In this document: positions 2,968 through 59,830 of the stretch, one piece after another
Numbering within the stretch: position 1 is the stretch's first letter
How the letters are laid out: each line of letters starts with the position of its first letter
Assembly: GCA_051886195.1 (NCBI GenBank)
Contig: JBJEXW010000003.1
Coordinates: forward strand, 23,844 to 87,843
DNA length: 64,000 nucleotides
From: Clostridia bacterium
Lineage (GTDB): Bacteria; Bacillota; Clostridia; TANB77; CAG-465
Reading direction: 5' to 3'
Position numbers and translations under genes: made by a program
Notes under the pieces: generated by a model
The model's input: only the letters and a program-made list of their open reading frames with translations
Told to the model about the DNA's origin: nothing
Databases searched by the model: none

Positions 2968-3741
2968 ATGAATGAAATAATAAAAATAAATAATGTAAGA
3001 GGATGTCAAACTGCAAATGGAATGGCACAATTAAATTTAGAGGATGTGGCAAGAGGATTGGGATTTACAAACGTAGCCACAAGTGGTCACGAAGTAGTTA
3101 GATGGGCAAGAGTAAGAAAATATTTAAATGATATAGGTTTTAATATAAAAAATGAAAAATTACCAGAATATATACCAGAGAATATATTTTATAAATTGTG
3201 CTTTAAAGCTAAAAATGAAGTGGCAAGAAGATTTCAAGACATGGTAACAGATGAGGTATTACCAAGTATAAGAAAACATGGAGCATATTTAACACCAGAT
3301 AAAGTAGAAGAAGTATTATTAAATCCAGATACAATAATAAATCTTGCAACAGAGTTGAAGAAAGAACGTTTATTAAACGAGCAAAACCAAAAACTAATAG
3401 GAGAATTAAAGCCAAAGGCAGATTATACAGATATGGTATTACAAAGTAAAGGAACAGTTACAATAAACGCAATAGCAAATGACTATGGTATGACAGCAAT
3501 AGCAATGAATAGGTTATTATATAGTTTAGGAGTGCAATATAAACAGGGAGAACAATGGTTATTATATGGTAAATATAGAAATTTTGGATATACACATAAT
3601 AAAACAATTCATTATCATCATAAGAACGGAACTCCTGCAACTAAATTAAATATGGAATGGACACAAAAGGGTAGACTATTTTTATATAGACTATTAAAAG
3701 AGCATGATATATTACCACTAATTGAAGAATTGAGTGCATAA
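2968..3741 (+). CDS. Phage antirepressor-like protein (Bro-N + KilA-C/ANT domains)
   Basis: N-terminus has a Bro-N pattern (..EVARRFQDMVTDEVLPSIRKHGAY); C-terminus is KilAC-like. Confidence 0.6.
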   Translation: MNEIIKINNVRGCQTANGMAQLNLEDVARGLGFTNVATSGHEVVRWARVRKYLNDIGFNIKNEKLPEYIPENIFYKLCFKAKNEVARRFQDMVTDEVLPSIRKHGAYLTPDKVEEVLLNPDTIINLATELKKERLLNEQNQKLIGELKPKADYTDMVLQSKGTVTINAIANDYGMTAIAMNRLLYSLGVQYKQGEQWLLYGKYRNFGYTHNKTIHYHHKNGTPATKLNMEWTQKGRLFLYRLLKEHDILPLIEELSA

Positions 3742-4471: not shown

Positions 4472-7400
4472 GTGAAAAAGATGACAATTGAAGAAATAGA
4501 AATAATAGTAACTGCTAAAGTTGAAGAAGCATTACGAGAATTTAATAAGATGAAACCTCAACTAATGAAAGTAATGGAAGAAGTATCAAAAGAGATAAGC
4601 AAAGTAGATTTTAAGCAATTAAATAATACAGTAAAAGAAGGAACAAATGAAGTAAAGAAACAATTAAAATCTACATTTAATCCAGAAACTTTAGATCCTG
4701 GTTTTCTTAAAGCAACAGAAAAATTATATGCAGAAAGCATCAAAAAAACCCAAAAATATGTTAAAGACGTGCAAAATGAAATGTCAAAAGGAGACATGCA
4801 AGAAATAGGAAGACAAGTAGCACAAGCAACAGAGCAAGTTAATCAGGCTTTAAATAGTGAAAGTGTGCAAAAAGTAGTAAAAGACTCAGTAAAAGCTATA
4901 GAACAAATTAAGGATAAATTAGAAGAAGTAAAAGAAACAAACAAAGAGAATGAAATTAAATTAGATGTAAGTAATGAAGAAGCACTAGAGCAGATTACAC
5001 AATTAGAAAAAGAAATTGATTCGTTACAAAAGAAAATTACATCTAGGGAGATGAAATTGAGTGTAACAACGGATGCAATAGATAAAATACGATATGGAAA
5101 GCAAGATGAAATAAGAAAACAAAATCCTAGTTTAAGGGATATGCAAGTATCTAATAGAGCTGATTTTCAATTAAGTTCAGATACAGGATATACATCATTA
5201 GTAAATCAAGCGGATAAATTAAATACGGAAGTAACAAAGTATAATAGCTTACTTGAAAGTGCAAAAAGTAAATTAAGTGGATTAAAACAAAATACATCAC
5301 AAGTAGCGACAGAACAAGAAAAAACAAATACAAAAACAAGTAAATTACAAACAATATTCAATTCAGTAGGGGCTGGAATAAAATCTATGTTATCTGGACT
5401 AGGCAAGATGTTCCAAACAGGTGGTAAGGTAGTAAATATATTTAAAAAGTTTACTCCACATCTAGGCAATGGAATGAAAAGCTTATTAAAATATGCAGCT
5501 ACATTATTTAGCTTAAAGAGTGTATATAATACATTAAATTCAGCAGGTCAAGCTTGGTTATCTAGTCAAGATAGTGGTGCTAAACAATTAAGTGCAAATA
5601 TAGATTATATGAAATATGCACTAGGTAGTGCAGTGGCACCAGTAATACAATATGTAACTAATTTATTTTATCAACTATTAAAAGCTGTTCAAAGTGTAAT
5701 ATATGCCTTATTTAAGGTAAATATATTTGCTAAAGCGGGAGCAAGTGCTTATAATTCTATGGCAAATAATGCTAGTAAAGCAAGTAAAGCTAATAAAAGT
5801 TTAGCAAGTATACATAGTGAAATAAATAATGTATCATCAAGTTCTGGAGATAGTGGCAATAATGCATTAGTTCCAAGTATGGACTTTTCTAGTTTAGATA
5901 CACAACTTACACCATTAAAAAAAAGATTAGCTGATTTCTTTAGACCATTAGTTGAAAGTTGGAATACATATAGTCCACAATTAATATCAAAAGTACAAGA
6001 AACATTTAGTCAAATAGGATCATTATTAGAAAGCATAGGACAGAGCTTTATAAATATATTTGCAAATGGTACAGTATATACTATTTTAGAAAATATATTA
6101 AGTATTATAGGTAATATAGCAGAAGCTTTTGCAAATGCATGGAATTACAATGGTAATGGAGATATAATTGTACAAAATCTAGCAACAGCCTTAAATAATT
6201 TATTAATAGCAATAAATAATGTAGTACAAAGCTCAGGTTTTCAAGAATGGTTAAATAATTGTTCTGATAAATTTAGAGAGATAACAGAAAAAATTGCCGA
6301 AATAGATTGGCAACCATTAATTGATGCTTTAAGTAAAATAGGAGCATCAATAGGTACATTAGCTTTAGATATATTAAGTGGATTAGTAGATGTATTTAAA
6401 TGGTTTATTGAAAATCCAGATATATCAGGAATAATATTATCAATTGCAGCAGCATTATTACTTGTAGGTAGCGCAATAAATGCTTTTTCTGGTATTGCAG
6501 CAGTAATATCTTCTCTATCAAATTTAGCATCAGTAATTGGAACAACAATTTCAACTATTATGTCAGTTATAGGAGGAATATCTCTAATCATAGTTGGAAT
6601 AGTAACAGCTATTTCAAGTTTTGTAAGTATGCTTTCAGAAGGATTTAGCTGGCTTAAAGAGGTTATTATGCTAGTAGGAATTGCAATAGCAGCAGTAGGA
6701 GCAATTATTTTAGGAGCACCTGCACTAGTTGCAGGTGTTATAGCAGCAGTAGTTGCAGTTGTGGCTACATTAGTTGTTGCGGTTAAAGAACATTGGAATG
6801 AGATTAAGGAATTTATATCAAATGGCGTAGAAAAAGTTAAAGAAATATTTAATACAGTAATAGAATGGGTAAAAGAAAATTGGCAAGGATTATTATTACT
6901 AATAGTAAATCCATTTGTTGGAGCTTTTAAACTACTATATGATAATTGTGAAGGATTTAGAAATTTCATAGATAGTTTTGTAGAGAAAATTAAAAATTTC
7001 TTTAAAGATTTATGGAATAATATACAAAACATATTGTCGAATATAGGCAGTTTCTTTTCAAATATATTTAATAGTATAGGAAATGTAGTTTCGAATGTAT
7101 TTAATGGAATGTGGAATACAATAAGAAATGTAATTAATGCTATTTTAGGTGGAATAGAGTCTATGGCAAATGGTATAGTATGGGGAGTAAATAAAGTAAT
7201 AGACGTATTAAATAACCTTAATGTTCATATACCAGACTGGATACCAGTATTTGGCGGAAAAGACATAGGATTTCATATTAATCAAATGAGTACTGTTTCG
7301 TTACCACGACTTGCTAAAGGAAATGTAGCATGGAAGGAAACAGTAGGCATTTTTGGAGAGTATTCGGGAGCACAAAATGATCCTGAAATAACATCTCCAA

Positions 7401-7582
7401 GAAGTATAATGTATGAAACATTTGTAAAAGCTTTAAAAGAAAATAATAGCAATAATGATACTCCAATAAGTTTTAATTTGACGGCAATATTTGGAAATAA
7501 GAGAATAGGTCAAATTGCAATAGAAGATATTAAAGATATTAAGAGAGCAACAGGAGAAGATTTAGAGATTATATTTAGCTAA
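4472..7582 (+). CDS. Phage tail tape-measure protein
   Basis: 1036 aa; N-terminal coiled coil, central multi-TM Gly/Ala-rich segment, size and position typical of a TMP. Confidence 0.8.
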   Translation: MKKMTIEEIEIIVTAKVEEALREFNKMKPQLMKVMEEVSKEISKVDFKQLNNTVKEGTNEVKKQLKSTFNPETLDPGFLKATEKLYAESIKKTQKYVKDVQNEMSKGDMQEIGRQVAQATEQVNQALNSESVQKVVKDSVKAIEQIKDKLEEVKETNKENEIKLDVSNEEALEQITQLEKEIDSLQKKITSREMKLSVTTDAIDKIRYGKQDEIRKQNPSLRDMQVSNRADFQLSSDTGYTSLVNQADKLNTEVTKYNSLLESAKSKLSGLKQNTSQVATEQEKTNTKTSKLQTIFNSVGAGIKSMLSGLGKMFQTGGKVVNIFKKFTPHLGNGMKSLLKYAATLFSLKSVYNTLNSAGQAWLSSQDSGAKQLSANIDYMKYALGSAVAPVIQYVTNLFYQLLKAVQSVIYALFKVNIFAKAGASAYNSMANNASKASKANKSLASIHSEINNVSSSSGDSGNNALVPSMDFSSLDTQLTPLKKRLADFFRPLVESWNTYSPQLISKVQETFSQIGSLLESIGQSFINIFANGTVYTILENILSIIGNIAEAFANAWNYNGNGDIIVQNLATALNNLLIAINNVVQSSGFQEWLNNCSDKFREITEKIAEIDWQPLIDALSKIGASIGTLALDILSGLVDVFKWFIENPDISGIILSIAAALLLVGSAINAFSGIAAVISSLSNLASVIGTTISTIMSVIGGISLIIVGIVTAISSFVSMLSEGFSWLKEVIMLVGIAIAAVGAIILGAPALVAGVIAAVVAVVATLVVAVKEHWNEIKEFISNGVEKVKEIFNTVIEWVKENWQGLLLLIVNPFVGAFKLLYDNCEGFRNFIDSFVEKIKNFFKDLWNNIQNILSNIGSFFSNIFNSIGNVVSNVFNGMWNTIRNVINAILGGIESMANGIVWGVNKVIDVLNNLNVHIPDWIPVFGGKDIGFHINQMSTVSLPRLAKGNVAWKETVGIFGEYSGAQNDPEITSPRSIMYETFVKALKENNSNNDTPISFNLTAIFGNKRIGQIAIEDIKDIKRATGEDLEIIFS

Positions 7583-7652
7583 AAATAACAATATTATTGA
7601 AAAGTTGTAAAAAAACATATATAATATGTTATATATAAAAGGAGATAACAAT

Positions 7653-7892
7653 ATGTTTGGAAATAACAACAATAATACTGAAATAAGTTTAGAGCCTAAA
7701 AATGGTAATAAACATATATTATTGGTATGCCCATCAACTCCAAATGGAACTAAACCAGAAGTTTCATATACATCAAAGGTAAATGAAATACTTGAAGAGA
7801 TACAAAATAAGGGATATGAAGTATTAGATGTAAAATTGGAAATAGGCAGGAGAAATGGATTATCATATGAAGCACTAATAATATATAAATAA
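7653..7892 (+). CDS. Small hypothetical phage protein
   Basis: RBS AAGGAG upstream of MFGNNNN. Confidence 0.35.
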   Translation: MFGNNNNNTEISLEPKNGNKHILLVCPSTPNGTKPEVSYTSKVNEILEEIQNKGYEVLDVKLEIGRRNGLSYEALIIYK

Positions 7893-7896
7893 AAAA

Positions 7897-7925
7897 TAAG
7901 AAGAGTTAACAGAGGTTAGCTCTTT
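7897..7925 (+). terminator. Rho-independent terminator (aagagttaac..gttagctctt + T-run)
   Basis: Hairpin plus TTTTTT; the same hairpin sequence ends both cassettes. Confidence 0.5.
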
Positions 7926-7988
7926 TTTGTACCTTAAAAACATAAAAAACAGACAGAAAAATATTTTTAACTTTTTTATAAAAAACTC

Positions 7989-8031
7989 TTGATATATGTA
8001 TCCACAAATGATAATATATATGTGGATACAG
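7989..8031 (+). promoter_or_regulatory. Promoter (TTGATA, 17 nt, TAATAT) inside the palindromic operator TGTATCCACA-N13-TGTGGATACA
   Basis: 10/11 inverted repeat centred on the -10 box. Confidence 0.5.
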
Positions 8032-8037
8032 AAAGAG

Positions 8038-8223
8038 GTGAGTAAAATAGAAGTAAAAAAAATGGGTAGACCTACTAATGATCCTAAAAAATTAAATACT
8101 AGAATTAGATTATCAGAAAAAGATGTAGAAAAATTAAATTTTTGTTGCAGTAAGACAGGAAAATTAAAATCGGAAATAATAAGAGAAGGAATAGATAAGG
8201 TTTACACCGAATTAAATAAATAA
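8038..8223 (+). CDS. Ribbon-helix-helix regulator (cassette B)
   Basis: GTG start after the RBS GAAAGAGG; motif MGRPTNDPKKLNTRIRLSEKDVEKL is RHH-like. Confidence 0.45.
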   Translation: MSKIEVKKMGRPTNDPKKLNTRIRLSEKDVEKLNFCCSKTGKLKSEIIREGIDKVYTELNK

Positions 8224-8267
8224 AAAGAAGAAACCCGTTACATATCTTGGCGGATACACGAGTTTCT

Positions 8268-8356
8268 TACAAGTAAGAATTTTAGTCCTTACAAATCTAA
8301 TTGTATCACAGTAAGGGCTGAAGTTCAAGAGAAATTTTGAATGGAGGTCATTTTTT
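8268..8356 (+). ncRNA. Conserved leader element (copy B)
   Basis: About 95% identical to 2437..2530. Confidence 0.35.
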
Positions 8357-8521
8357 ATGGAAAGAAAGGTAGATAAAAATTGGAAATTAGAGGAACAAAA
8401 TTATGAATTATTAAGAAAATATGAAGATACACAAACAGTTACAGATATATTATTTGATTATTTACTTTCGATAAGAAAGGAATTAAAAAATGTAATTGAT
8501 ACCTCTGTGAAGGAGGATTAA
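8357..8521 (+). CDS. Small hypothetical protein (MERKV family, cassette B)
   Basis: 54 aa; paralogous to 2531..2794. Confidence 0.4.
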   Translation: MERKVDKNWKLEEQNYELLRKYEDTQTVTDILFDYLLSIRKELKNVIDTSVKED

Positions 8522-8523
8522 TT

Positions 8524-8691
8524 ATGGGAATAATTGAAGTAATGATTTTAATGATAATGTGTATCTTAAGAATGATAATAATAAACTTACCTACATTATT
8601 AATAATGATAGGTATACAAGCTGTTACATATTGGATAACAGGAATAAGTATATATAATAAAATAAAAGATTTTATGATAAGGGGGATGTAA
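8524..8691 (+). CDS. 55-aa hydrophobic membrane peptide (cassette B)
   Basis: MGIIEVMILMIMCILRMIIINLPTLLIMIGIQAVTYWITGISIYN.. Confidence 0.45.
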   Translation: MGIIEVMILMIMCILRMIIINLPTLLIMIGIQAVTYWITGISIYNKIKDFMIRGM

Positions 8692-8693
8692 TT

Positions 8694-9437
8694 ATGAATA
8701 ATAAATTAGAAATAGTAAAAAGTGAGAACTTCAATGGAATAGAATGTGATTTTTATAGTGATAAAAAAGATGTTTTTATGACAATAAATCAATTGGCTAA
8801 TTGTTTAAAATATAAAAATGGAAGAAAAGGAATTGAAAATCTAATTAGTAGAAATGAATATTTAAAAAATAGAGAATTTTCAGTTACCCTCGATATGAGG
8901 GCTACTGATGGTAAGCAATATAATACAAGGGTATTTACAGAAGATGGTATATATGAAGTAACAATGTTGGCAAGAACAGAAAAAGCAAGAGAGTTCAGAG
9001 ATTTTGTAAGGAAGGTCTTAAAATCTTTGAGAAAAGGAGAATCTAAATTAATAAAGACACCAGAACTACAAAGATTACAAATTGAAGCTAAATTAAATAA
9101 TTCAAGAGCTAGAGTGGCAAATGTATTATTAAAATTAGCAGATAAAACAAATATACCAGAATATAAACAAGTAATATTATCAAATGTAAGTGCTATATTA
9201 TCTAGAAATCAATTAATACCATTACCTAGTGCAGAAAAGAAAACATATAGCGCAAATGAAATAGGCGATATATTAGGAATAACAGGGAATATGGTAGGAA
9301 GACTTGCAAACGCAAATAATTTAAAAACAGATAAATATGGAAAGTTATTTTATGATAAATCTAAATATAGTAGCAAACAAGTCGAAACATTTAGATATTA
9401 TGAAAATATAATTCCAGAATTAAGAAAAATATTATAA
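8694..9437 (+). CDS. Phage antirepressor-like protein (Bro-N domain)
   Basis: FNGIECDFYSDKKDVFMTINQLANCL is a Bro-N signature. Confidence 0.6.
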   Translation: MNNKLEIVKSENFNGIECDFYSDKKDVFMTINQLANCLKYKNGRKGIENLISRNEYLKNREFSVTLDMRATDGKQYNTRVFTEDGIYEVTMLARTEKAREFRDFVRKVLKSLRKGESKLIKTPELQRLQIEAKLNNSRARVANVLLKLADKTNIPEYKQVILSNVSAILSRNQLIPLPSAEKKTYSANEIGDILGITGNMVGRLANANNLKTDKYGKLFYDKSKYSSKQVETFRYYENIIPELRKIL

Positions 9438-9446
9438 AAATAAAGG

Positions 9447-9527
9447 GACTATGTCCTGAGTAAGACATTAAACTGCTCTTATATCCCTTTAAAATAAAAT
9501 TTATAAGAAGAGTTAACGAAAGTTAGC
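9447..9527 (+). repeat. Two-hairpin boundary element, copy 2 (includes a terminator)
   Basis: About 90% identical to 4365..4455. Confidence 0.5.
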
Positions 9528-9623
9528 TCTTTTTGTATTATAAATACTAGTTATGTCATTGATGTTGAAAAAATTAAATAATAATATTATTATTTTGGAT
9601 ATATATTATTACTATATACTTAG

Positions 9624-9670
9624 TTGAAAATGTAAAAAAAATATGTTATAATTTGTCAACGAGGTTGACA
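9624..9670 (+). promoter_or_regulatory. Promoter (TTGAAA, 17 nt, TATAAT) followed by the palindrome TGTCAAC-gag-GTTGACA at +1
   Basis: Consensus boxes; a perfect 7-bp inverted repeat overlaps the transcription start and the RBS. Confidence 0.55.
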
Positions 9671-9674
9671 GCTA

Positions 9675-10982
9675 ATGAGTATTAGAAAATTAAAAATAAG
9701 TTCTAGGGCAAAGAAAATCATTCGTATTAAGAACCAAAGTAAAGAAAAGTTAAGAAAGGTTCTTAAGTATAGGAATAAAAAGAATAAAAAAATGTATGTA
9801 AAGTATTTTACTAAATATAAAAAAAGAAAACAAACAGAGTTAAGTAAAATATTTAGATTATTAGATGATAAAAAATTTTATAAAAAGCCAAGTATCCTTG
9901 TAAGTGGAACAGCTATTATACAAATACCTAGAGTTTTTTGTTTTTCTAAAAATGCTTATGAAACTATTGACATAATAAAAGAGGTAGCATATGCATGTAA
10001 GAATAATCTTGATATAATAATAGATCATTCTGAATGCCAGTATTTAGATTTGGGAGCATCTACAGTTATGGATGTTCTTATAATGGAATATAAAGCAAAA
10101 ATAAAGGCATTGCGTATGCATAAAGGTATAAGAGGTAAACTATCTAAAAGTCAAAAAGTAAATGATTTATTAAAGTTTAGCGGGATAGTAAAACATTTAG
10201 GATTAAATAATGAAATGTCGAATGAATTAGAATTGTTTCCATTAAAAAAGAATAAAGCTCCTGGTGTTTTAGGCGCTGATATAATTGAATATTATAAAAG
10301 GTGTTTAGCAACAAAAGGATTTGAATTAACTGAACAAGGAGAATTATATTTCGGAAATATACTAGGGGAAGTATTAACAAATTGTAAGGATCATGGCGGA
10401 GAAAATTCACAATGGTATGCAATGGGACATTATATTACTAAAGAAGGAAATATAAGCTTAATAATTTTTAATTTTGGACAAACAATTTTTGAGGGCTTAA
10501 ATAGTAAGGAAACATCGAAAGAAACCATAAAAGATTTAGATAATATTACTAATAGACATATAAAATTATTCAATTCAAAGTGGGACAAAGAAACGTTATG
10601 GACTTTATATGCATTACAAAGTGGTGTAAGCAGATTAAAATCAAAGGAAGATCCAACCAGAGGTACTGGGACAATAAAAATGATTGATGGATTCCAGACT
10701 CTTGGCAAGAAAATAGCAGAGGATGGCAAGAAATTAAATCCAATAATGAGTATTACATCTGGTAATGTTAATATAGTTTTTGATGGAACATATAATTTAA
10801 AAGAGGAACATGTAGATGGTGGAATTAGAAAAATAATTGCATTTAACAAGGAAAATGATTTGTATAAATTACCAGATCAGAATTATGTAAAAAATATAAA
10901 AAATTACTTTCCAGGAACAATAATAACTATGAATTTTTATATTGATAATAAGTATATAGATTTAATGAAAAAAGGAGAATAA
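9675..10982 (+). CDS. GHKL (HATPase_c_2, SpoIIAB/RsbW-type) kinase-ATPase with a Lys-rich N-terminus and a sensor-like middle region
   Basis: N-box LGEVLTNCKDHGG, G1-like IIFNFGQTI and G2-like TRGTGTIKMI resemble SpoIIAB EAVTNAIIHG / DEGVGI / ERSGMGFTIM. Confidence 0.5.
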   Translation: MSIRKLKISSRAKKIIRIKNQSKEKLRKVLKYRNKKNKKMYVKYFTKYKKRKQTELSKIFRLLDDKKFYKKPSILVSGTAIIQIPRVFCFSKNAYETIDIIKEVAYACKNNLDIIIDHSECQYLDLGASTVMDVLIMEYKAKIKALRMHKGIRGKLSKSQKVNDLLKFSGIVKHLGLNNEMSNELELFPLKKNKAPGVLGADIIEYYKRCLATKGFELTEQGELYFGNILGEVLTNCKDHGGENSQWYAMGHYITKEGNISLIIFNFGQTIFEGLNSKETSKETIKDLDNITNRHIKLFNSKWDKETLWTLYALQSGVSRLKSKEDPTRGTGTIKMIDGFQTLGKKIAEDGKKLNPIMSITSGNVNIVFDGTYNLKEEHVDGGIRKIIAFNKENDLYKLPDQNYVKNIKNYFPGTIITMNFYIDNKYIDLMKKGE

Positions 10983-10984
10983 TA

Positions 10985-11320
10985 ATGAAAGAAATGATAA
11001 TTAGTTTGCAAAAATATAGAGCAAATGGAGAAAAAATACTTACAGGAAGAGACGAAGGAAAAAGAATAAGGGAAACCTTAAAATTAGATAAGATAGATAA
11101 GGAAGATATAACAGTAACTATAGATATACCAGGCGATATTTTATCATTAAATTCATCATATTTTCTAGGATTATTTCAAAAAAGTATAATACTATTAGGT
11201 GAAGAAAAATTTAGAAAAAAGTATATTTTTAAATGTGAAAGAAAATCAATAGTTGACATTAATGTTGAAGATGGAATACAAGAAGCATTAAATAATGCGA
11301 ATGCTTTAGGAGGAAAATAG
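10985..11320 (+). CDS. STAS-like (DUF4325-type) partner protein
   Basis: 111 aa; ILSLNSSYFLGLFQ..FRKKYIFKC..DGIQEAL fits the DUF4325/STAS pattern; translationally coupled to the GHKL gene. Confidence 0.45.
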   Translation: MKEMIISLQKYRANGEKILTGRDEGKRIRETLKLDKIDKEDITVTIDIPGDILSLNSSYFLGLFQKSIILLGEEKFRKKYIFKCERKSIVDINVEDGIQEALNNANALGGK

Positions 11321-11922
11321 TGAAAAAGGGTTATGTGTATATAGCATTATTTGTATTAATAATTGTCATAAATGTACTAGCGTTTACTATATTCAAAGAA
11401 ACAACATTTGAAAATAAAATAGCCTTTGTAAATATAGTATATCTTATTATAGTATATTTTGTTGATAGGATAGTTGAAAGCTTTGATAAAAAAGATGATA
11501 ATAAAAAATATTGGTTTAAAAATTTTATATTAGAAAAATATATATATGATTATTGTGAGTTTTTTGATTCAGGAGCTGATATTTTAAGAGAGGCAAGTGA
11601 TAGAAAAAATAAATATGTTGAAAGTAATATAGGTGCAAAAGATTTAAAAGAAATGTCTGAAAAATTTCAACAAGAATTATTTGACAAATTTTCACTAATA
11701 AAAAGAAAAATTACATCTATAAATGCATTTATACAAATTTATGATAATGATATTTATTTTAAAGTTCAAGAAGTTATTGAAGAGTATCAAAATAAATTTA
11801 CAGAAATGCTTGAAAATCAACTCAACAATGTAAATGACAATATTGAAAAGGATATAATTGAAATATATGAATTTCGAAGAAAATTATTAGAAATTTTTTA
11901 TAAACATTCTATAGATTTATAA
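11320..11922 (+). CDS. 2-TM membrane protein with a cytoplasmic helical domain (candidate effector)
   Basis: GTG start overlaps the upstream stop codon; two N-terminal TM helices. Confidence 0.45.
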   Translation: MKKGYVYIALFVLIIVINVLAFTIFKETTFENKIAFVNIVYLIIVYFVDRIVESFDKKDDNKKYWFKNFILEKYIYDYCEFFDSGADILREASDRKNKYVESNIGAKDLKEMSEKFQQELFDKFSLIKRKITSINAFIQIYDNDIYFKVQEVIEEYQNKFTEMLENQLNNVNDNIEKDIIEIYEFRRKLLEIFYKHSIDL

Positions 11923-11981
11923 AATTATGAAGGACGGAGATATCTGTTCTTTTTTTATGCTCTAAAAAAGGAGATGATAAT

Positions 11982-12379: not shown

Positions 12380-14917
12380 ATGTACCCAGTAAGTGAAAAA
12401 TGGAAAGAAAGAATATATAGCGATGGTATTAAATCAAAAATAAAATTGTATATAAATGAAGAACTTATACAAGCTAAAATACTTAACTTAAAAATATCTC
12501 ATATTTTATATAATAATGATAGTAGTATATCATTAGGTACAACGACGTCACAATCATTAGAATTAAAGCTATTTAAAAAAGATTTACCAACAAATATTAA
12601 TACTATAAAAATAGAATATGGTATTTTAATAGATGATGAATACGATATGATACCATTAGGTGTTTATAATGTTGATAGTATAGACGATACTAATAATGAA
12701 ACAATTACTATAAAAGCCTCAGATAATATGATTAAATTTGAAGTTAACTATGACGGTAGTAATTTAAATTATCCGGCAACTATAAAAACCGTTTTATTAG
12801 ATATTTGTAACAAAGTAGGAGTAAAACTTGGTACTTCTACTTTTTTAAATGAAAATACAGAAATAGCTGTATGGGACAATACCGTAAGTGCTAGAAAGTA
12901 TTTGAGTTATATTGCAGAAAAAGCAGGATGTATAGCAGTAATAGGAAGAGATGGAAAATTATATTTAAAAAATTTATATGAGAGCAGTGAAATAATTCCA
13001 TTAAGATTATTTAAAAAGTATGAATGGGGAGAAAAGCATACTATAACAGGTGTAAAATTTCAAGATGGAATAAGAGCATATAATTTAGGAAATTCATCAG
13101 GAAATACATTATGGATTAGTTCAGAGAATATGTTTATTACATCATCAGCGGAAATAGAAGATATTTATGAAAAAATAAATGGTTTAGTAGCATATAGTTT
13201 CAATTCTGGCACCACAAGAATTAATCCAGCATTAGATGTAGGAGATAAAGTTGTTATAGATGGAAAAGAAGTAATATATCAATATGAAATGGAGTTAAAA
13301 GGTAGATTTTTAGGAACTGTTAATTCTAAATTATCAGATAAATCTAAAGAAGATACTACAGTAAAGAAAATTAGTAATGATACAAAAATTAGAAGAGTAC
13401 AAAGTGAAATTAATCAAATAGATGGTAAAATTACTCAATTAGTACAAGAAACAGAGGAAAACTCTGAAAAGATTTCCAAAAATGAGCAAGATATAGATAG
13501 TATAAATCAAACAGTGTCAAGTTTTACAAATTTTACTAAGACAATTGAAGGAAAAACAAAAATATTATTAGAAGATGCTTTAGAGACTAATATTTTAAAA
13601 TTGGTATTGTATGCAGAAAATACAGAAAATGGAATATATCCAAGCGAAGATTTATATCCATCTGAAGACTTATATCCTGAAAATGCTGGAAATGAATTTA
13701 CTATATTAGTTGAAAATGAGGATAAGACAGAAACAAAAGAGTTCTATTATAATTCTACATATCCTTTAGAAGAATATGATGGGACACGTGATCAACTTGT
13801 TATAGAATTTGATAAGGAAAAAGGATGCTGTAGTGTAAAAGTTTTAGCATATATTGAAGAAATAGCAGAAAATGTGTTCACAGTACTTGAAACACCAAAA
13901 GAGATAATATTAGAAGATAATTTACAATTTACTTTATTTAAAGGGAACAATTATATATCTGTAAAAGAATATCAAGATTGGAAAATTGAAGCTACATATA
14001 TATTCAATAACGAATTAAATGATTTGTATGCAACACAAGTATATATGAGTTCTGTTATAAAACAATTATCAGATGAGATATTACTTGAGGTTAGCAAAAA
14101 GGTCGGCGACGATGAGCTAATTGCTAAAATAAATCTTACACCAGAAACAATAAAAATTATCGCTTCTAAACTAGCCTTGGAAGGCTATACTACAATAAAT
14201 GGTGGTTTTTCAATAGATGAAGAAGGCAATGCGTCGATTGCAAATGGTGCTGTAATAATAAATAAAGATGGTATACGAATGGCCGATGGAACAAGTATTT
14301 TGGGTGGAAAAGGTTTATTATCTAATTTAACATTTGAAGGCATTGGAATTGTAAAGACTGCATCAGTAGGTTCATATTATCAAGTTGGATTTATGAGAAA
14401 TTCTAATAATGGAACAAATTTTAAATCACGAATAGATATTGATGCATATATTCCAGAAGGATTTGAAATTGAAAAAGCAGTAGTAACTATTTCACATTTT
14501 CCTATGGAAATAAATTATAATGGTACAAATTATGGAAAAGGATTTGCTAGAGGACTTAATATTTTTTATTCAAATACGCAAAGTAGAATGTTACAATTTA
14601 ATATTGGAAGTGAATACCAGGGAATAAATGATACAAGTTTAACTCAAATAGCAAATGGTTTAGAAAAAAATTGGACACCAAATATAGAAGAAAATAAAGT
14701 GGATAATATTGTAACTAAAGACATAAAAAGTAGTTTACAAAAGGGTATAAATAGAATAACAATACAAAGTGCAGATGATATACCATTCTATGATACTAGT
14801 TTAAATGAACAATATTTAGAAAAAGGATCAATAGAATATCTTTTAAAAACTGGTATGGTAAGTGCGTTTCTTGATATTTATGGTTTCATGAAACCAATAA
14901 ACGAGGAGGAAAAATAA
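12380..14917 (+). CDS. Phage tail-associated (Tal / tail endopeptidase-like) structural protein
   Basis: 845 aa; coiled-coil middle; YPSEDL tandem repeat; position after the Dit-like gene. Confidence 0.45.
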   Translation: MYPVSEKWKERIYSDGIKSKIKLYINEELIQAKILNLKISHILYNNDSSISLGTTTSQSLELKLFKKDLPTNINTIKIEYGILIDDEYDMIPLGVYNVDSIDDTNNETITIKASDNMIKFEVNYDGSNLNYPATIKTVLLDICNKVGVKLGTSTFLNENTEIAVWDNTVSARKYLSYIAEKAGCIAVIGRDGKLYLKNLYESSEIIPLRLFKKYEWGEKHTITGVKFQDGIRAYNLGNSSGNTLWISSENMFITSSAEIEDIYEKINGLVAYSFNSGTTRINPALDVGDKVVIDGKEVIYQYEMELKGRFLGTVNSKLSDKSKEDTTVKKISNDTKIRRVQSEINQIDGKITQLVQETEENSEKISKNEQDIDSINQTVSSFTNFTKTIEGKTKILLEDALETNILKLVLYAENTENGIYPSEDLYPSEDLYPENAGNEFTILVENEDKTETKEFYYNSTYPLEEYDGTRDQLVIEFDKEKGCCSVKVLAYIEEIAENVFTVLETPKEIILEDNLQFTLFKGNNYISVKEYQDWKIEATYIFNNELNDLYATQVYMSSVIKQLSDEILLEVSKKVGDDELIAKINLTPETIKIIASKLALEGYTTINGGFSIDEEGNASIANGAVIINKDGIRMADGTSILGGKGLLSNLTFEGIGIVKTASVGSYYQVGFMRNSNNGTNFKSRIDIDAYIPEGFEIEKAVVTISHFPMEINYNGTNYGKGFARGLNIFYSNTQSRMLQFNIGSEYQGINDTSLTQIANGLEKNWTPNIEENKVDNIVTKDIKSSLQKGINRITIQSADDIPFYDTSLNEQYLEKGSIEYLLKTGMVSAFLDIYGFMKPINEEEK

Positions 14918-19125: not shown

Positions 19126-19554
19126 ATGGAGAAGATTTTAACATTAATAGTAACAATGCTATTTAAAGTGATGATTGTTACAATAGTTCTTGATTGCATT
19201 TTAGGAGTTTTAAGAGCTATTAAGGAAAGAAAATTTAATTCATGTATAGGGATTGATGGATTAGTAAGAAAATTTGCTATGCTTGTTACTGCAATAGGTA
19301 CAAAAGTAATTGACAATATAGTTCAGTTTAATTTTATAGGATTTGTTCCACAAACAATACGAGACTTTATTCATTTAGACTATGCAGGGATATCTGATCT
19401 ATTTCTTTTATTATTTATAGCCTTTGAAGCGCTATCTATTTTAAAGAATTTGACTAGATTAAAATTACCATTTTTCAAAGGTGTACAAGCTAAATTAGAA
19501 GAGTTTTTAGAAAAATATACTGACGAAACAATAAAAGTGGATAAAGAGGTGTAG
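19126..19554 (+). CDS. Holin (phage_holin_4_1 / TcdE-like)
   Basis: 142 aa, three TM helices, RBS AGGAGGG, immediately upstream of the endolysin. Confidence 0.65.
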   Translation: MEKILTLIVTMLFKVMIVTIVLDCILGVLRAIKERKFNSCIGIDGLVRKFAMLVTAIGTKVIDNIVQFNFIGFVPQTIRDFIHLDYAGISDLFLLLFIAFEALSILKNLTRLKLPFFKGVQAKLEEFLEKYTDETIKVDKEV

Positions 19555-19663
19555 AGATACACCTCTATTTTTATATAAAGGAGGAAAATCATGGGAGACG
19601 AAGAAATAGTTCTAACAGAAGAACAAGAAAAAGAATTTTCAAATAATAAAGGAGATGATACTG

Positions 19664-22820: not shown

Positions 22821-22896
22821 TGGTGCTCCTGAGACGAATCGAACGTCCGACCAACGACTTAGGAGGTCGCTGCTCTATCCACTGAGCTACAGAAGC
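22821..22896 (-). tRNA. tRNA-Arg (anticodon CCT)
   Basis: Cloverleaf GCTTCTGTAGCTCAGTGGATAGAGCAGCGACCTCCTAAGTCG...CACCA; anticodon loop CTCCTAA. Confidence 0.85.
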
Positions 22897-23438: not shown

Positions 23439-23515
<77 letters not shown>

Positions 23516-43284: not shown

Positions 43285-43360
43285 TGGAGCTGAAACTCAG
43301 ATTCGAACTGAGGACCTACGGTTTACAAGACCGTTGCTCTACCAACTGAGCTATTCCAGC
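43285..43360 (-). tRNA. tRNA-Thr (anticodon TGT)
   Basis: GCTGGAATAGCTCAGTTGGTAGAGCAACGGTCTTGTAAACCG... Confidence 0.85.
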
Positions 43361-43375
43361 AAATATACTTTTTAA

Positions 43376-43451
43376 TGGTGACCCGTAGGAGAGTCGAACT
43401 CCTCACTCCGCCGTGAAAGGGCGATGTCTTAACCGATTGACCAACGGGCCC
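43376..43451 (-). tRNA. tRNA-Glu (anticodon TTC)
   Basis: GGGCCCGTTGGTCAATCGGTTAAGACATCGCCCTTTCACGGCG... Confidence 0.85.
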
Positions 43452-43457
43452 CATTTG

Positions 43458-43533
43458 TGGTGAGCCATCGCAGATTCGAACTGCGGACAACTTGATTAAA
43501 AGTCAAGTGCTCTGCCAACTGAGCTAATGGCCC
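43458..43533 (-). tRNA. tRNA-Lys (anticodon TTT)
   Basis: GGGCCATTAGCTCAGTTGGCAGAGCACTTGACTTTTAATCAAG... Confidence 0.85.
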
Positions 43534-53381: not shown

Positions 53382-53710
53382 GTTTTAGTATCTCAGATGA
53401 TTGCTTGTTTATGCAAGAGGAAAGTCCGGACACTATAGAGCAGGGTGCTAGATAACGTCTAGTGGGAGTGATCCTAAGGAAAGTGCAACAGAAAATAACC
53501 GCTATATATAGTAAGGGTGAAAACGTGAGGTAAGAGCTCACGAATAATTATGGAGACATAATTATGGTGTAAACCCCACCTAGTGCAACACCAGAACTAA
53601 ACATTAAGGTTGCTCGCCAAGTTTTAAGTTGGTGGCTTGAAATGTGTAGCAATATACATTCTAGATAAATGATCATCTAATACAGAATCCGGCTTACGAG
53701 ATGCTAAAAC
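53382..53710 (+). ncRNA. rnpB: RNase P RNA, type B
   Basis: GAGGAAAGTCCGGAC; GGGTGAAAACGTGAGGTAAGAGCTCACG; ACAGAATCCGGCTTA; P1 stem GTTTTAGTATCTC/GAGATGCTAAAAC; promoter TGgTATAAT at 53367; terminator at 53716..53745. Confidence 0.85.
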
Positions 53711-53883
53711 ATATTAAAAAAGCTCTTTTTTGAGCTTTTTTTTATTCTTTATTTGACATAGTAAAACAAAAATGATAATATATTACACAACATAATATAT
53801 TTAACTTTATTTTTATTAAAAAGGAGGGGTATTTATGAGTAAAGATAATTATGAATTAAAATGTTGCATTTGCAAAAAGCCTA

Positions 53884-55128: not shown

Positions 55129-55229
55129 TTGCTATCTATATATAAATAAATGTCAATTATATTGACATTTATTTTTTTTTATAATAAAATCATAAGTAGT
55201 ATAAATTTTAAAGGATAGGAGGTCTTTTT

Positions 55230-55928
55230 ATGGAATTTAAAGCATTAGAAGGAAAAAACGTAGAAATAAAAGTAGGAGACAACACATACTTAAGACACGC
55301 AATTGAAACACATTATGTTCAACTTGGTGAAAGTTATGTAGATTTAATTAAAAAATATGTTGTACCTATATATGAAGAAGGTGACATAGTTTCCATTAGT
55401 GAAAAGGTAATAAGTCTTTGTCAAAGAAGAATTGTATATAAAAAGGATGTAAAAGTTTCAGGACTTGCAAAATTCTTATCTAAATTTGCAATGAGAAGTG
55501 ATGCGGGTGTTGGAGTAGATAATCCATATAAAATGCAATTTGCAATTAACCTTTGTGGACCTATAAAAGTTTTATGGGCTGCAATTGCAGGTGGAGTATG
55601 TAAATTATTTGGTAAAAAAGGAGTTTTCTATGAAATTGTTGGTCAAGAAGTTAGTGGACTTGACGGATTTTATGGTAATGTCTTTTCAGATTATGCAGAG
55701 TTTGGTATTAGAATACCTGAAAATTCAACAGGAGTATGTAATGAAATATTTGAAGCAACAGGTGTAAAATGCATGATTGTTGATGCAAATGACTTCAATG
55801 TTGAAATTTTAGGAAAGTCAGATGCTATTGAAGAAGACGATGCAGAATTAAAAGGAATGATTAAGGACAATCCATGTGGTCAAGCTAAAACTTTAACACC
55901 AATGGTTTTAATAAGAAAACAAAAATAA
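55230..55928 (+). CDS. F420-0:gamma-glutamyl ligase (CofE)-like family protein
   Basis: EEGDIVSISEKVISLCQRRIV pattern. Confidence 0.35.
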   Translation: MEFKALEGKNVEIKVGDNTYLRHAIETHYVQLGESYVDLIKKYVVPIYEEGDIVSISEKVISLCQRRIVYKKDVKVSGLAKFLSKFAMRSDAGVGVDNPYKMQFAINLCGPIKVLWAAIAGGVCKLFGKKGVFYEIVGQEVSGLDGFYGNVFSDYAEFGIRIPENSTGVCNEIFEATGVKCMIVDANDFNVEILGKSDAIEEDDAELKGMIKDNPCGQAKTLTPMVLIRKQK

Positions 55929-59673: not shown

Positions 59674-59731
59674 TAAATATTTATATATAAAACTATTGAA
59701 AATAAAAAGATTATATTGTATAATATTTCTA

Positions 59732-59812
59732 TGCCAAGCGATAGAGTACTGTGAACCTTGTCAGATCCGGAAGGAAGCAGCAATAAGCAATATACTCTAT
59801 GTGCTTGGTTTT
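59732..59812 (+). ncRNA. ffs: Signal recognition particle RNA (small, 4.5S-like)
   Basis: Conserved domain IV GTCAGATCCGGAAGGAAGCAGC; closing helix GCCAAGC/GCTTGG; promoter TGTATAAT at 59717; position upstream of dnaX as in Bacillus. Confidence 0.7.
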
Positions 59813-59830
59813 TTTATTAGGAGGTTTAAA

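What the first reader, a model, noticed from the sequence alone, without database searches (positions are those of the whole stretch)
9624..11922. Three-gene cassette in the phage tail module: anti-sigma-like GHKL kinase-ATPase + STAS-like DUF4325 + 2-TM protein
A self-contained operon sits between the tape-measure gene and the distal tail genes, where siphophage genomes normally have none. It has a consensus promoter and a perfect TGTCAAC-N3-GTTGACA operator at +1. It encodes a 435-aa protein with SpoIIAB/RsbW-type Bergerat-fold motifs (N-box EVLTNCKDHGG, G-boxes) and a very Lys/Arg-rich N-terminus. A 111-aa STAS-like partner and a membrane protein with two N-terminal TM helices follow, with translational coupling. 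A kinase/STAS pairing is the hallmark of partner-switching, and no characterised phage defence or superinfection-exclusion system with this composition is known to me. The membrane protein is a plausible abortive effector.
Basis: partly seen in the sequence, partly recalled or inferred. Interest (0 to 1): 0.85.

Follow-up and report, generated by a model that had tools for sequence, protein, structure and literature searches.

The report
Prophage kinase–STAS–membrane protein defence-like cassette
A prophage carries, as independent cargo inside its tail-gene block, a three-gene switch (a serine-kinase-like sensor, its small STAS-type substrate and a membrane protein) that is a previously undescribed membrane-protein version of the VapKSC/CapKS anti-phage kinase systems reported in 2026.

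Summary
Three tightly coupled + strand genes (A 9675-10982, B 10985-11320, C 11320-11922) lie between the tape-measure gene and the distal tail genes. They have their own promoter-like site and are flanked by terminator-like hairpins.

- **A:** Pfam gives no hit.
- **B:** a divergent DUF4325 STAS-like protein with an invariant Ser58 at the start of helix α2.
- **C:** a membrane-anchored helical protein with no recognisable family.

A-B-C co-occur in 113 of 116 loci from many phyla, in prophages, ICE-like elements and chromosomal islets. No sigma factor or other conserved fourth gene accompanies them.

The closest known systems are CapK/CapS and the VapK-VapS-VapC toxin-antitoxin defence operon (Chambers et al., EMBO J 2026). 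A, VapK and CapK all hit phrog_3364, and B and VapS both hit DUF4325. The difference is that a membrane protein replaces the PIN toxin.

Most likely mechanism, by inference: A phosphorylates B on Ser58, which releases C to act on the membrane. No step of this was tested. I rate it a new variant of a known kind, of moderate interest.

The parts
9502..9537 (+). Terminator-like hairpin (16-bp stem, GAAA loop, U-run) after the upstream Bro-N/anti-repressor gene. It insulates the cassette from upstream transcription.
   Evidence: RNA fold of 9440-9540: -31.1 kcal/mol, z -5.46; sequence.
9624..9652 (+). Sigma-70-type promoter-like site: TTGAAA, 17 nt spacer, TGnTATAAT (extended -10).
   Evidence: 11 of 12 matches with TG. 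This is pattern evidence only. Such sites are common in this AT-rich region (58 found against 41.8 expected).
9654..9670 (.). Perfect inverted repeat TGTCAAC-GAG-GTTGACA. It overlaps the predicted transcription start and contains the GAGG ribosome-binding site of gene A. It may be an operator, or an RBS-sequestering hairpin in read-through transcripts.
   Evidence: RNA hairpin -8.5 kcal/mol, z -3.05. It is conserved only in L009 and L013, which are close relatives.
9675..10982 (+). Gene A (435 aa): a CapK/VapK-like STAS-GHKL kinase-like protein.
9675..9881 (+). A residues 1-69: Lys/Arg-rich helical N-terminal tail (28 K+R of 69). It is conserved in composition but not in sequence.
   Evidence: 24-46% K+R across the homologues that have this tail. 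AF2 helices 10-34, 38-54 and 58-65 with pLDDT 62-86.
9882..10244 (+). A residues about 70-190: internal STAS domain. F88 is invariant. Ala128-Ser129 are nearly invariant at the start of helix 126-145.
10260..10979 (+). A residues about 196-435: GHKL (Bergerat) domain. N-box E232/N236/H240; atypical G1 box N266-F-G268-Q-T270; G2/lid R329-G330-T-G332-T333.
10985..11320 (+). Gene B (111 aa): DUF4325 STAS-like protein. R22, G25, R29 and Ser58 are invariant. It has a C-terminal helix at 87-109.
11320..11922 (+). Gene C (200 aa, GTG start overlapping B's stop): membrane protein with two predicted TM helices (about residues 6-24 and 33-50) and an all-helical cytoplasmic domain of about 150 aa. No known family.
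   Evidence: Hydropathy scan. No Pfam, PADLOC, PHROG or NCBIfam hit. Family alignment A5 shows one conserved TM plus a W-F/Y-K motif. Only compositional matches to helical-bundle proteins in PDB.
11929..11952 (+). Intrinsic-terminator-like hairpin followed by a T-run, ending the cassette.
   Evidence: (-10.8 kcal/mol, z -3.2).

Best explanation
The cassette is prophage cargo (a 'moron'): a three-gene kinase / STAS-substrate / membrane-protein module. It is a membrane-protein relative of the VapK-VapS-VapC toxin-antitoxin-type anti-phage system and of the CapK-CapS regulators.

**Proposed mechanism.**
1. In the lysogen the operon is transcribed from its own promoter.
2. B (STAS-like) holds the cytoplasmic helical domain of the membrane protein C in an inactive state.
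3. A (basic tail + STAS + GHKL) is switched on by an infection or stress cue. The cue is probably a nucleic acid, by analogy with ssDNA activation of CapK and suggested by A's conserved polybasic tail.
4. Activated A phosphorylates B on the invariant Ser58 at the N-terminus of helix α2.
5. Phospho-B dissociates, and C then perturbs the membrane. This stops growth of the infected cell or blocks the superinfecting phage.

**Shown here.**
- The gene anatomy and domain folds.
- Homology of A to VapK/CapK and of B to the VapS family.
- Strict A-B-C linkage across phyla.
- Location on mobile elements.

**Inferred, not shown.** Kinase activity, Ser58 as the acceptor, B-C binding, the trigger, and C as the effector.
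For: **Homology of A.**
- A, VapK and CapK all hit phrog_3364, at E 1.2e-18, 4.9e-33 and 1.3e-11 respectively.
- The Mg-binding Asn236 is invariant. It aligns with CapK N218, whose mutation abolishes CapS phosphorylation.

**Homology of B.**
- VapS hits Pfam DUF4325 at 62.7 bits. 34 of 51 B-family members hit the same model.
- The B model is STAS-like.
- Ser58 is invariant in 51 sequences. It sits at the start of helix α2, where CapS S54 and VapS S48 are phosphorylated.
- B keeps a C-terminal helix, as VapS does.

**Linkage and distribution.**
- A+B+C homologues co-occur, adjacent and co-oriented, in 113 of 116 loci. Two of the three exceptions (L017, L104) end just after A or B; in L067 a 175-aa TM ORF in C's position was not matched by the profile.
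- The loci come from Firmicutes, Bacteroidota, Acidobacteriota, Verrucomicrobiota, Gemmatimonadota, Actinomycetota and others.

**Mobile, defence-like context.**
- 25 IMG/VR viral contigs carry the module.
- It lies next to an integrase, DNA methyltransferase, DNA polymerase or tail genes in different phages.
- It lies next to a HinfI restriction-modification system and an LXG toxin in B. halotolerans. It lies beside an integrase and conjugation genes in another locus, and next to IS elements, SocA/Panacea and PIN genes in gut contigs.
- Immediate neighbours are heterogeneous: 126 Pfam families among 150 proteins. They include integrases, type I specificity subunits, DpnII, RmuC and mad5.

**Moron anatomy in the window.**
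- The cassette has its own promoter and flanking terminators.
- The related phage Bajarodcaudo virus 4 has different genes in the same slot between the tape-measure and distal tail genes.
Against: **No function was tested.**

**The link to VapK/CapK is remote.**
- Direct hhalign of the A family gives only E 7e-4 to CapK and E 0.013 to VapK, at low probability.
- The B profile does not find VapS by sequence.
- The link rests on shared PHROG and Pfam families, domain architecture and motifs.

**A's G1 box is not canonical.**
- It reads N266-F-G-Q-T, with Asp in only 5 of 47 homologues.
- ATP binding or kinase activity could therefore be altered or lost.

**The ssDNA-contact residues of CapK and VapK are not recognisably conserved in A.**
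- Y123, which aligns with VapK F54, is variable.
- The residues at the positions of the CapK/VapK lysines are also variable.

**C is poorly characterised.**
- It has no similarity to any known toxin or pore-former.
- Only one TM helix is conserved family-wide.
- Nothing shows that it is toxic or that it binds B.

**Other limits.**
- PADLOC has no model for A or B.
- Defence genes are present near the module, but their enrichment was not quantified against a background.
Confidence: 0.55

Rival explanations
1. The kinase-STAS switch is as proposed, but C is not a killing effector. It would be a membrane anchor, sensor or non-lethal superinfection-exclusion factor, for example one that blocks DNA entry at the membrane. 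The K-S pair would either report on C or tune it.
For: - C has only one family-wide TM helix plus a soluble helical domain, and no toxin or pore signature.
- Prophage-encoded membrane proteins commonly act in superinfection exclusion (established knowledge).
- The same slot in the related phage Bajarodcaudo virus 4 carries other TM proteins.
Against: - In the homologous VapKSC operon the third gene is the toxin and the STAS protein is its antitoxin.
- The module is also common outside prophages. A phage-specific entry block is less expected there.
Confidence: 0.2
2. A is a pseudokinase or a nucleotide-dependent binder. It would act by sequestering B or C, in the manner of an anti-sigma factor, without phosphorylating B. 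It might use a nucleotide other than ATP.
For: - The G1-box Asp is replaced by Asn in 36 of 47 homologues, and the second Gly by Thr or Ser.
- No Pfam HATPase model matches A.
- SpoIIAB itself acts both by binding and by phosphorylation (established knowledge).
Against: - E232, N236, H240, R329, G330 and G332 are invariant, which indicates a maintained nucleotide site.
- Ser58 of B is invariant, as expected for a phospho-acceptor.
Confidence: 0.1
3. The module serves the phage's own life cycle. It would sense DNA damage to influence induction, lysis timing or holin-like function, together with the adjacent anti-repressor and RHH genes. It would not be a defence system.
For: - In the window it lies directly downstream of a Bro-N/Ant anti-repressor (8694-9437) and an RHH repressor-like gene (7996-8223).
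- CapK is activated by ssDNA produced on DNA damage.
- C is a small membrane protein.
Against: - The A-B-C unit is found with entirely different neighbours, including non-phage chromosomal islets and ICE-like regions.
- The prophage has its own holin and endolysin.
- The cassette is transcriptionally insulated from the anti-repressor gene.
Confidence: 0.08
4. It is a CapKS-type transcriptional regulator pair, or a classic SpoIIAB/SpoIIAA-type partner switch that controls a sigma factor.
For: - The structural best hits are SpoIIAB, RsbW and RsbV.
- CapK/CapS regulate adjacent operons through palindromic operators, and a palindrome overlaps this promoter.
Against: - B is 111 aa and lacks the wHTH DNA-binding domain of CapS.
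- No sigma factor, PP2C phosphatase or conserved downstream operon accompanies the module.
- The module is abundant in non-sporulating phyla.
- C is always present.
- The palindrome is not conserved beyond close relatives.
Confidence: 0.05

Closest known systems
VapKSC (VapK-VapS-VapC) toxin-antitoxin-type anti-phage operon, Chambers et al., EMBO J 2026 (PMC13373217)
   Same: - Three co-oriented genes in the order kinase, small STAS protein, third protein.
- The kinase has a STAS + GHKL architecture and hits the same PHROG, phrog_3364.
- The STAS protein is about 110-116 aa, of the DUF4325 type, with a conserved Ser at the start of helix α2 and a C-terminal helix.
- The module is found on mobile elements and near defence genes.
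   Different: - The third gene is a TM-anchored helical protein, not a PIN/VapC nuclease.
- A is about 140 aa longer than VapK. It has a conserved polybasic N-terminal tail and extra insertions.
- A's G1 box has Asn instead of Asp.
- B is too divergent from VapS to be found by direct sequence or profile search.
- Function is untested.
CapK-CapS, a DNA-damage-activated kinase and STAS-wHTH repressor controlling CBASS, Bub and other immune operons (same paper)
   Same: - The kinase has an N-terminal extra region, then STAS, then GHKL.
- The N-box signature E..N...HS and the RG.G lid motif align.
- The substrate is a STAS protein with a conserved 'SF' serine.
   Different: - CapK's N-terminal region is an HTH, whereas A's is a polybasic helical tail.
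- CapS carries a wHTH and represses transcription, whereas B has no DNA-binding domain.
- CapKS sits upstream of variable immune operons, whereas here the partner gene C is fixed.
SpoIIAB-SpoIIAA and RsbW-RsbV anti-sigma partner-switching modules
   Same: - They are the best structural matches for both the GHKL domain and the STAS domains.
- The logic of serine phosphorylation at the start of helix α2 is the same.
   Different: - No sigma factor or phosphatase is linked.
- The kinase carries its own fused STAS domain.
- No Pfam HATPase_c or STAS model reaches threshold.
- The module lies on mobile elements in many non-sporulating phyla.
Abortive-infection systems with small transmembrane effectors (for example CBASS and Pycsar TM effectors, RexAB)
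   Same: A sensor plus a small membrane protein, carried by prophages or defence islands. These systems usually act by membrane perturbation (established knowledge).
   Different: C has no sequence or profile similarity to any of them. Activation here would be by a phospho-switch on a STAS protein, not by a nucleotide signal.

Membership tests
CapK/VapK-type STAS-GHKL kinases | STAS domain immediately N-terminal to a GHKL (Bergerat) domain in one polypeptide | tested here: met
CapK/VapK-type STAS-GHKL kinases | Sequence-profile relationship to VapK and CapK | tested here: met
   All three hit phrog_3364: A at E 1.2e-18, VapK at 4.9e-33 and CapK at 1.3e-11. Direct hhalign is weak: E 7e-4 and 0.013.
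CapK/VapK-type STAS-GHKL kinases | Catalytic N-box Asn (CapK N218, VapK N160) | tested here: met
   E232, N236 and H240 are invariant in 47 homologues. N236 aligns with CapK N218.
CapK/VapK-type STAS-GHKL kinases | Canonical G1 box DxGxG (adenine-binding Asp) | tested here: not met
   The window protein has N266-F-G268-Q-T270. Across the family this position is Asn in 36 of 47 and Asp in 5 of 47. CapK has DSGLG and VapK has DFGVG.
CapK/VapK-type STAS-GHKL kinases | ssDNA-contact aromatic (CapK W68, VapK F54) and Lys pair | tested here: inconclusive
   Y123, which aligns with VapK F54, is not conserved. Positions 255 and 256 are variable. F88 is invariant but its equivalence is unproven.
CapK/VapK-type STAS-GHKL kinases | Ser kinase activity on the partner STAS protein | not testable with these tools
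   This needs biochemistry, or at least a complex prediction. Only monomer prediction was available.
VapS/CapS-type STAS proteins (Pfam DUF4325) | Match to Pfam PF14213 (DUF4325) | tested here: inconclusive
   Window B scores 16.7 bits, below the cut-off of 23. 34 of 51 family members match at E<=0.01, best 1.9e-8. VapS scores 62.7 bits.
VapS/CapS-type STAS proteins (Pfam DUF4325) | STAS fold | tested here: met
VapS/CapS-type STAS proteins (Pfam DUF4325) | Absolutely conserved Ser/Thr at the N-terminus of helix α2 (the phospho-acceptor) | tested here: met
   Ser58 is invariant in 51 sequences. Helix 57-79 starts at S57/S58. Exact residue equivalence to VapS S48 and CapS S54 is within about 1 residue by alignment.
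CapS-type repressors | C-terminal winged-HTH DNA-binding domain | tested here: not met
   B is 111 aa and ends after one helix (87-109). It has no HTH hit.
VapKSC operon | Third gene encodes a PIN/VapC nuclease toxin | tested here: not met
   C has no PIN or other Pfam hit. It is a TM protein in all 113 complete loci.
SpoIIAB/RsbW partner-switching module | Linked sigma factor and/or PP2C phosphatase; Pfam HATPase_c_2 and STAS matches | tested here: not met
   No such genes appear in the annotated neighbourhoods or among the 25 most frequent Pfam families of 150 immediate neighbours. There is no HATPase hit.
Known defence systems in PADLOC-DB v2.0.0 | HMM match of any component | tested here: not met
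   A and B have no hits. C has only a 0.064 E-value noise hit.
Phage moron (independently transcribed accessory cassette) | Own promoter and terminator; variable content at the same slot in related phages | tested here: met
   Promoter-like site and flanking terminator-like hairpins. Bajarodcaudo virus 4 carries different genes between homologous tape-measure and Dit-like genes. Expression itself was not tested.

The most novel reading that the evidence does not exclude
The A-B-C module is a distinct, widespread, uncharacterised anti-phage or abortive-infection system. At least about 840 protein clusters at 50% identity match the kinase at E<=1e-30, across many phyla. In this reading, a nucleic-acid-sensing STAS-GHKL kinase with a polybasic tail and an atypical Asn-type nucleotide pocket phosphorylates a DUF4325 STAS 'antitoxin' and so unleashes a new kind of membrane effector. 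This would extend the CapK/VapK phospho-switch from nucleases and transcription to membrane targets.
Probability: 0.45. Interest if true: 0.65.

Novelty: new variant of a known kind. Interest (0 to 1): 0.55.

Why it matters
- It would show that the recently discovered CapK/VapK kinase-STAS phospho-switch is a general, modular trigger.
- It would add a widespread, currently unannotated three-gene system to the defence and toxin-antitoxin catalogue. All its members are labelled 'hypothetical protein', with no Pfam or PADLOC model.
- It is common in Clostridia, Bacilli (including C. perfringens and Bacillus) and Bacteroidota, in prophages and ICE-like elements. It could therefore affect phage susceptibility in gut and soil bacteria.
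- The conserved polybasic tail and the Asp-to-Asn change in the nucleotide pocket are specific, testable differences in how the kinase senses and signals.

Tried and rejected
**Searches on A, B and C that found nothing.**
- Pfam, NCBIfam and PADLOC scans gave no significant hit.
- phmmer of A against PDB sequences found nothing.
- blastn and tblastn of the cassette and of A against GenBank phages found no match.

**Attempts to link B and C to solved structures.**
- The B-family profile against PDB found only noise and did not find VapS 9z7o.
- hhalign of the B family against single VapS and CapS sequences was not significant.
- The C-family profile against PDB gave only compositional helical-bundle matches to apolipoproteins and syntaxin. 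I did not interpret these.
- C's structure was not predicted. Only two prediction jobs were allowed, and only 8 close homologues were usable.

**Searches for cassette-less relatives of the prophage.**
- IMG/VR returned no relatives of the tail protein.
- An exact-sequence look-up found only the same arrangement.

**Ideas considered and rejected.**
- A conserved operator upstream of A homologues: the TGTCAAC palindrome occurs only in near-identical loci. Upstream palindromes in general are only mildly enriched, at 23 of 86 loci against 13.3 expected.
- A sigma-factor partner switch and a CapS-like repressor function (see rival explanations).
- Any known RNA family in the cassette: Rfam shows none.
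Full report
**1. The observation**

The three + strand ORFs are as described.
- A is 9675-10982 (435 aa), B is 10985-11320 (111 aa), and C is 11320-11922 (200 aa, GTG start).
- The A stop and the B start are 2 nt apart. B's TAG overlaps C's GTG. GGAGA and GGAGG ribosome-binding sites precede B and C.

The regulatory signals are also present.
- A promoter-like site, TTGAAA-17-TGnTATAAT, lies at 9624-9652 (11 of 12 matches).
- The perfect palindrome TGTCAAC-GAG-GTTGACA lies at 9654-9670. About 0.14 near-matches are expected by chance in the window.
- The palindrome carries A's GAGG ribosome-binding site.
- A terminator-like hairpin follows C at 11929-11952. A strong hairpin plus U-run at about 9502-9537 follows the preceding gene.
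- The cassette is therefore transcriptionally insulated on both sides.

The phage context is confirmed.
- 4472-7582 is a tape-measure protein (phrog_1535, E 8e-81).
- 12380-14917 is a tail protein.
- A holin is at 19126 and an endolysin at 19655.

The cassette is not directly next to the tape-measure gene. Five small ORFs lie between them. These include an RHH repressor-like gene (7996-8223) and a Bro-N/Ant anti-repressor (8694-9437).

**2. What the proteins are**

*Protein A.*
- It has no Pfam, NCBIfam, PADLOC or PDB-sequence hit. It does match phrog_3364, a family of unknown function (E 1.2e-18).
- Its homologues are all annotated as hypothetical and have no precomputed Pfam domain.
- An AlphaFold2 model built on 47 homologues is confident (pLDDT 88.5, pTM 0.84).
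- A is therefore built as follows: polybasic helical tail (1 to about 69), STAS domain (about 70-190), GHKL domain (about 196-435).
- The N-box residues E232, N236 and H240 and the lid motif R329-G330-x-G332-T333 are invariant or nearly so.
- The G1 box is atypical: N266-F-G268-x-T/S. The Asp that contacts adenine in canonical GHKL enzymes is Asn in 36 of 47 homologues and Asp in 5 of 47.
- The N-terminal tail is conserved in composition (24-46% K+R in nearly all homologues) but not in sequence.

*Protein B.*
- It matches phrog_37359. It matches Pfam DUF4325, a 'STAS-like' family, only weakly: 16.7 bits against a cut-off of 23.
- Across 51 family members taken from related loci, 34 hit DUF4325, the best at E 1.9e-8.
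- R22, G25, R29 and S58 are invariant.
- The AF2 model (pLDDT 86.7) has STAS-type β-β-α-β-α-β-α order, and helix α2 begins at S57/S58.

*Protein C.*
- It has no family hit.
- It has two hydrophobic N-terminal segments.
- The family alignment shows one conserved TM helix, a basic stretch with a W-(F/Y)-K motif, and a poorly conserved all-helical cytoplasmic domain of about 130-150 residues. Firmicute members carry an extra N-terminal TM helix.
- A profile search of PDB gave only compositional helical-bundle matches.

**3. The three genes form a conserved unit**

- Scans with the A alignment returned 80 loci from species-representative genomes and 25 IMG/VR viral contigs.
- Iterative profile searches over all ORFs of the 117 loci then held found A in 116 loci, A+B in 115, and A+B+C in 113. 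The genes are always adjacent, co-oriented and usually overlapping or a few nt apart.
- Two of the three exceptions (L017, L104) end just after A or B. In L067 a 175-aa TM ORF in C's position was not matched by the profile.
- The hosts span Clostridia, Bacilli, Bacteroidota, Acidobacteriota, Verrucomicrobiota, Gemmatimonadota, Actinomycetota, Deinococcota and Alphaproteobacteria.
- A profile search of 1.84 billion representatives at 50% identity found 2227 clusters at E<=1e-3 and 842 at E<=1e-30.

**4. Genomic context**

Annotated neighbourhoods differ completely from one locus to the next.
- In C. perfringens the module sits in a small islet between housekeeping genes.
- In gut metagenome contigs it sits next to IS66 and IS110 elements, SocA/Panacea, PIN and HTH genes.
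- In one locus it sits beside an integrase and TrwB/TrwC-type conjugation genes.
- In B. halotolerans it sits beside a HinfI restriction-modification system, a RapH-like gene and an LXG toxin.

Among 150 immediate neighbours from 87 non-redundant loci, 126 different Pfam families appear, and none occurs more than three times.
- The recurrent ones include tyrosine, serine and DDE recombinases, HTH proteins, type I restriction-modification specificity subunits, DpnII, RmuC and mad5.
- There is no conserved fourth gene. No sigma factor or PP2C phosphatase appears in the annotated neighbourhoods or among the most frequent families.

In phage contigs the module lies at different positions: next to a DNA methyltransferase and DNA polymerase, next to tail proteins, or next to the integrase.

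In the window's phage lineage, the junction between the tape-measure and Dit-like genes is a variable cargo slot.
- L013 (A 88% identical) has the cassette in the same place but with different upstream ORFs.
- Bajarodcaudo virus 4 has homologous tape-measure and Dit-like genes, with three unrelated ORFs between them.
- Together with the insulating signals, this is the anatomy of a phage moron.

**5. Comparison with what is known**

A full-text search led to Chambers et al., EMBO J 2026 (PMC13373217). The paper reports the following.
- CapK (HTH-STAS-GHKL) is activated by ssDNA. It phosphorylates the STAS-wHTH repressor CapS on Ser54 at helix α2, which de-represses adjacent immune operons.
- A related three-gene operon, vapKSC, encodes VapK (STAS-GHKL), VapS (a STAS domain plus a short C-terminal helix, 116 aa, Ser48) and the PIN toxin VapC.
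- VapS neutralises VapC. A phosphomimetic S48E mutant abolishes this.
- The operon gives about 2 logs of protection against phage Bas42.

I tested the relationship using the published sequences.
- VapK hits phrog_3364 at E 4.9e-33 and CapK at 1.3e-11. This is the PHROG that A hits.
- VapS hits Pfam DUF4325 at 62.7 bits, the family that most B homologues hit.
- hhalign of the A family against CapK (E 7e-4) and VapK (E 0.013) aligns the N-box, so that N236 matches CapK N218. It also aligns the G1 strand and the S...RGxG lid.
- Direct sequence or profile searches do not connect B with VapS. The relationship is remote.
- The paper does not mention membrane proteins as partners. No other paper in the library combines these terms.

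Similar kinase-STAS pairs sit next to integrases in other temperate phages.
- Marinitoga phage MPV1 and Burkholderia phage vB_E188 carry such pairs.
- The Francisella prophage KIRK table lists a 293-aa hypothetical protein, a 112-aa DUF4325 protein and a 125-aa TM protein next to cI.
- An older survey noted PIN.4 genes coupled to DUF4325 genes.

**6. Mechanism**

My best-supported model is by analogy with VapKSC.
- B binds and silences C.
- A trigger activates A. The trigger is probably a nucleic acid, given CapK's activation by ssDNA and A's conserved polybasic tail.
- A phosphorylates B on Ser58. Phospho-B releases C, which acts at the membrane to stop the infected cell or the incoming phage.

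What is shown: the anatomy, the folds, the homology links, the strict linkage, and the mobile-element context.

What is inferred: kinase activity, the acceptor residue, B-C binding, the trigger, and the effector role of C.

Caveats:
- The G1-box Asp is replaced by Asn.
- The ssDNA-contact residues of CapK and VapK are not recognisably conserved in A.
- C has no toxin signature.

The palindrome could be an operator. Alternatively, in read-through transcripts it could be a hairpin that hides A's ribosome-binding site. It is specific to close relatives.

**7. Verdict**

The finding is real and more than chance. Its claim of no known relatives is superseded by the 2026 work, and the sigma-type partner-switching framing is not supported.

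I classify the cassette as a new variant of a known kind: a CapK/VapK-CapS/VapS-type phospho-switch joined to a membrane protein. It is widespread and unannotated. Interest is moderate (0.55).

Noticed in passing
window 10056-10061 (A residues 128-129): A's own internal STAS domain has a nearly invariant Ala128-Ser129 at the start of helix 126-145. Ser occurs in 43 of 47 homologues and Glu in 2 of 47. This is the position analogous to the phospho-acceptor of SpoIIAA-type STAS proteins. VapK and CapK have no Ser there. It may be an autophosphorylation or pseudo-substrate site.
   Followed up: partly
window 10470-10484 (A residues 266-270): The G1 box of the GHKL domain reads N-F-G-Q-T instead of D-x-G-x-G. 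Asn replaces the adenine-contacting Asp in 36 of 47 homologues. This raises the question of altered nucleotide specificity or loss of catalysis.
   Followed up: partly
window 7626-9437: Five further accessory ORFs sit between the tape-measure gene and the cassette. They are an 88-aa protein (phrog_17572), an RHH repressor-like protein (7996-8223, phrog_876), two tiny ORFs (one hydrophobic), and a Bro-N/Ant anti-repressor (8694-9437). The anti-repressor also hits PADLOC candidate family PDC-S05.
   Followed up: partly
window 2968-3741: A second Ant-type anti-repressor gene (phrog_130, E 2.5e-63) lies upstream of the tape-measure gene, again inside the late/tail region.
   Followed up: no
L120 5100-8600 (Bajarodcaudo virus 4, PQ006095.1): A related phage has homologous tape-measure and Dit-like genes. 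Between them it carries three different ORFs: 190 aa, 313 aa with TM segments, and 228 aa with TM segments. The record annotates this stretch only sparsely. The junction is a variable cargo slot.
   Followed up: partly
window 55151-55167: A second perfect palindrome of the same type, TGTCAAT-TAT-ATTGACA, lies about 60 nt upstream of ORF 55230-55928 in the host part of the window. Both palindromes contain TTGACA-like half-sites.
   Followed up: no
L121 3423-5094 (Marinitoga phage MPV1); L122 3474-4681 (Burkholderia phage vB_E188): VapK-like 'histidine kinase' genes followed by small 'putative anti-sigma factor'/hypothetical genes sit next to the integrase in unrelated temperate phages. The Francisella prophage KIRK has a 293-aa hypothetical protein, a DUF4325 protein and a TM protein next to cI. 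Kinase-STAS modules appear to be recurrent prophage cargo.
   Followed up: partly
window 22824-22896, 23439-23512, 43288-43533, 53385-53711, 59730-59815: Host RNA genes: tRNAs just beyond the prophage's lysis end (22.8 and 23.4 kb), a cluster of three tRNAs at 43.3-43.5 kb, RNase P RNA, and SRP RNA. The tRNAs near 22.8-23.5 kb may mark the prophage attachment region.
   Followed up: no
window 9440-9537: An unusually stable two-hairpin structure (-31.1 kcal/mol, z -5.5) lies between the anti-repressor gene and the cassette promoter. The second hairpin looks like a terminator. The first (9441-9491) is unexplained.
   Followed up: no
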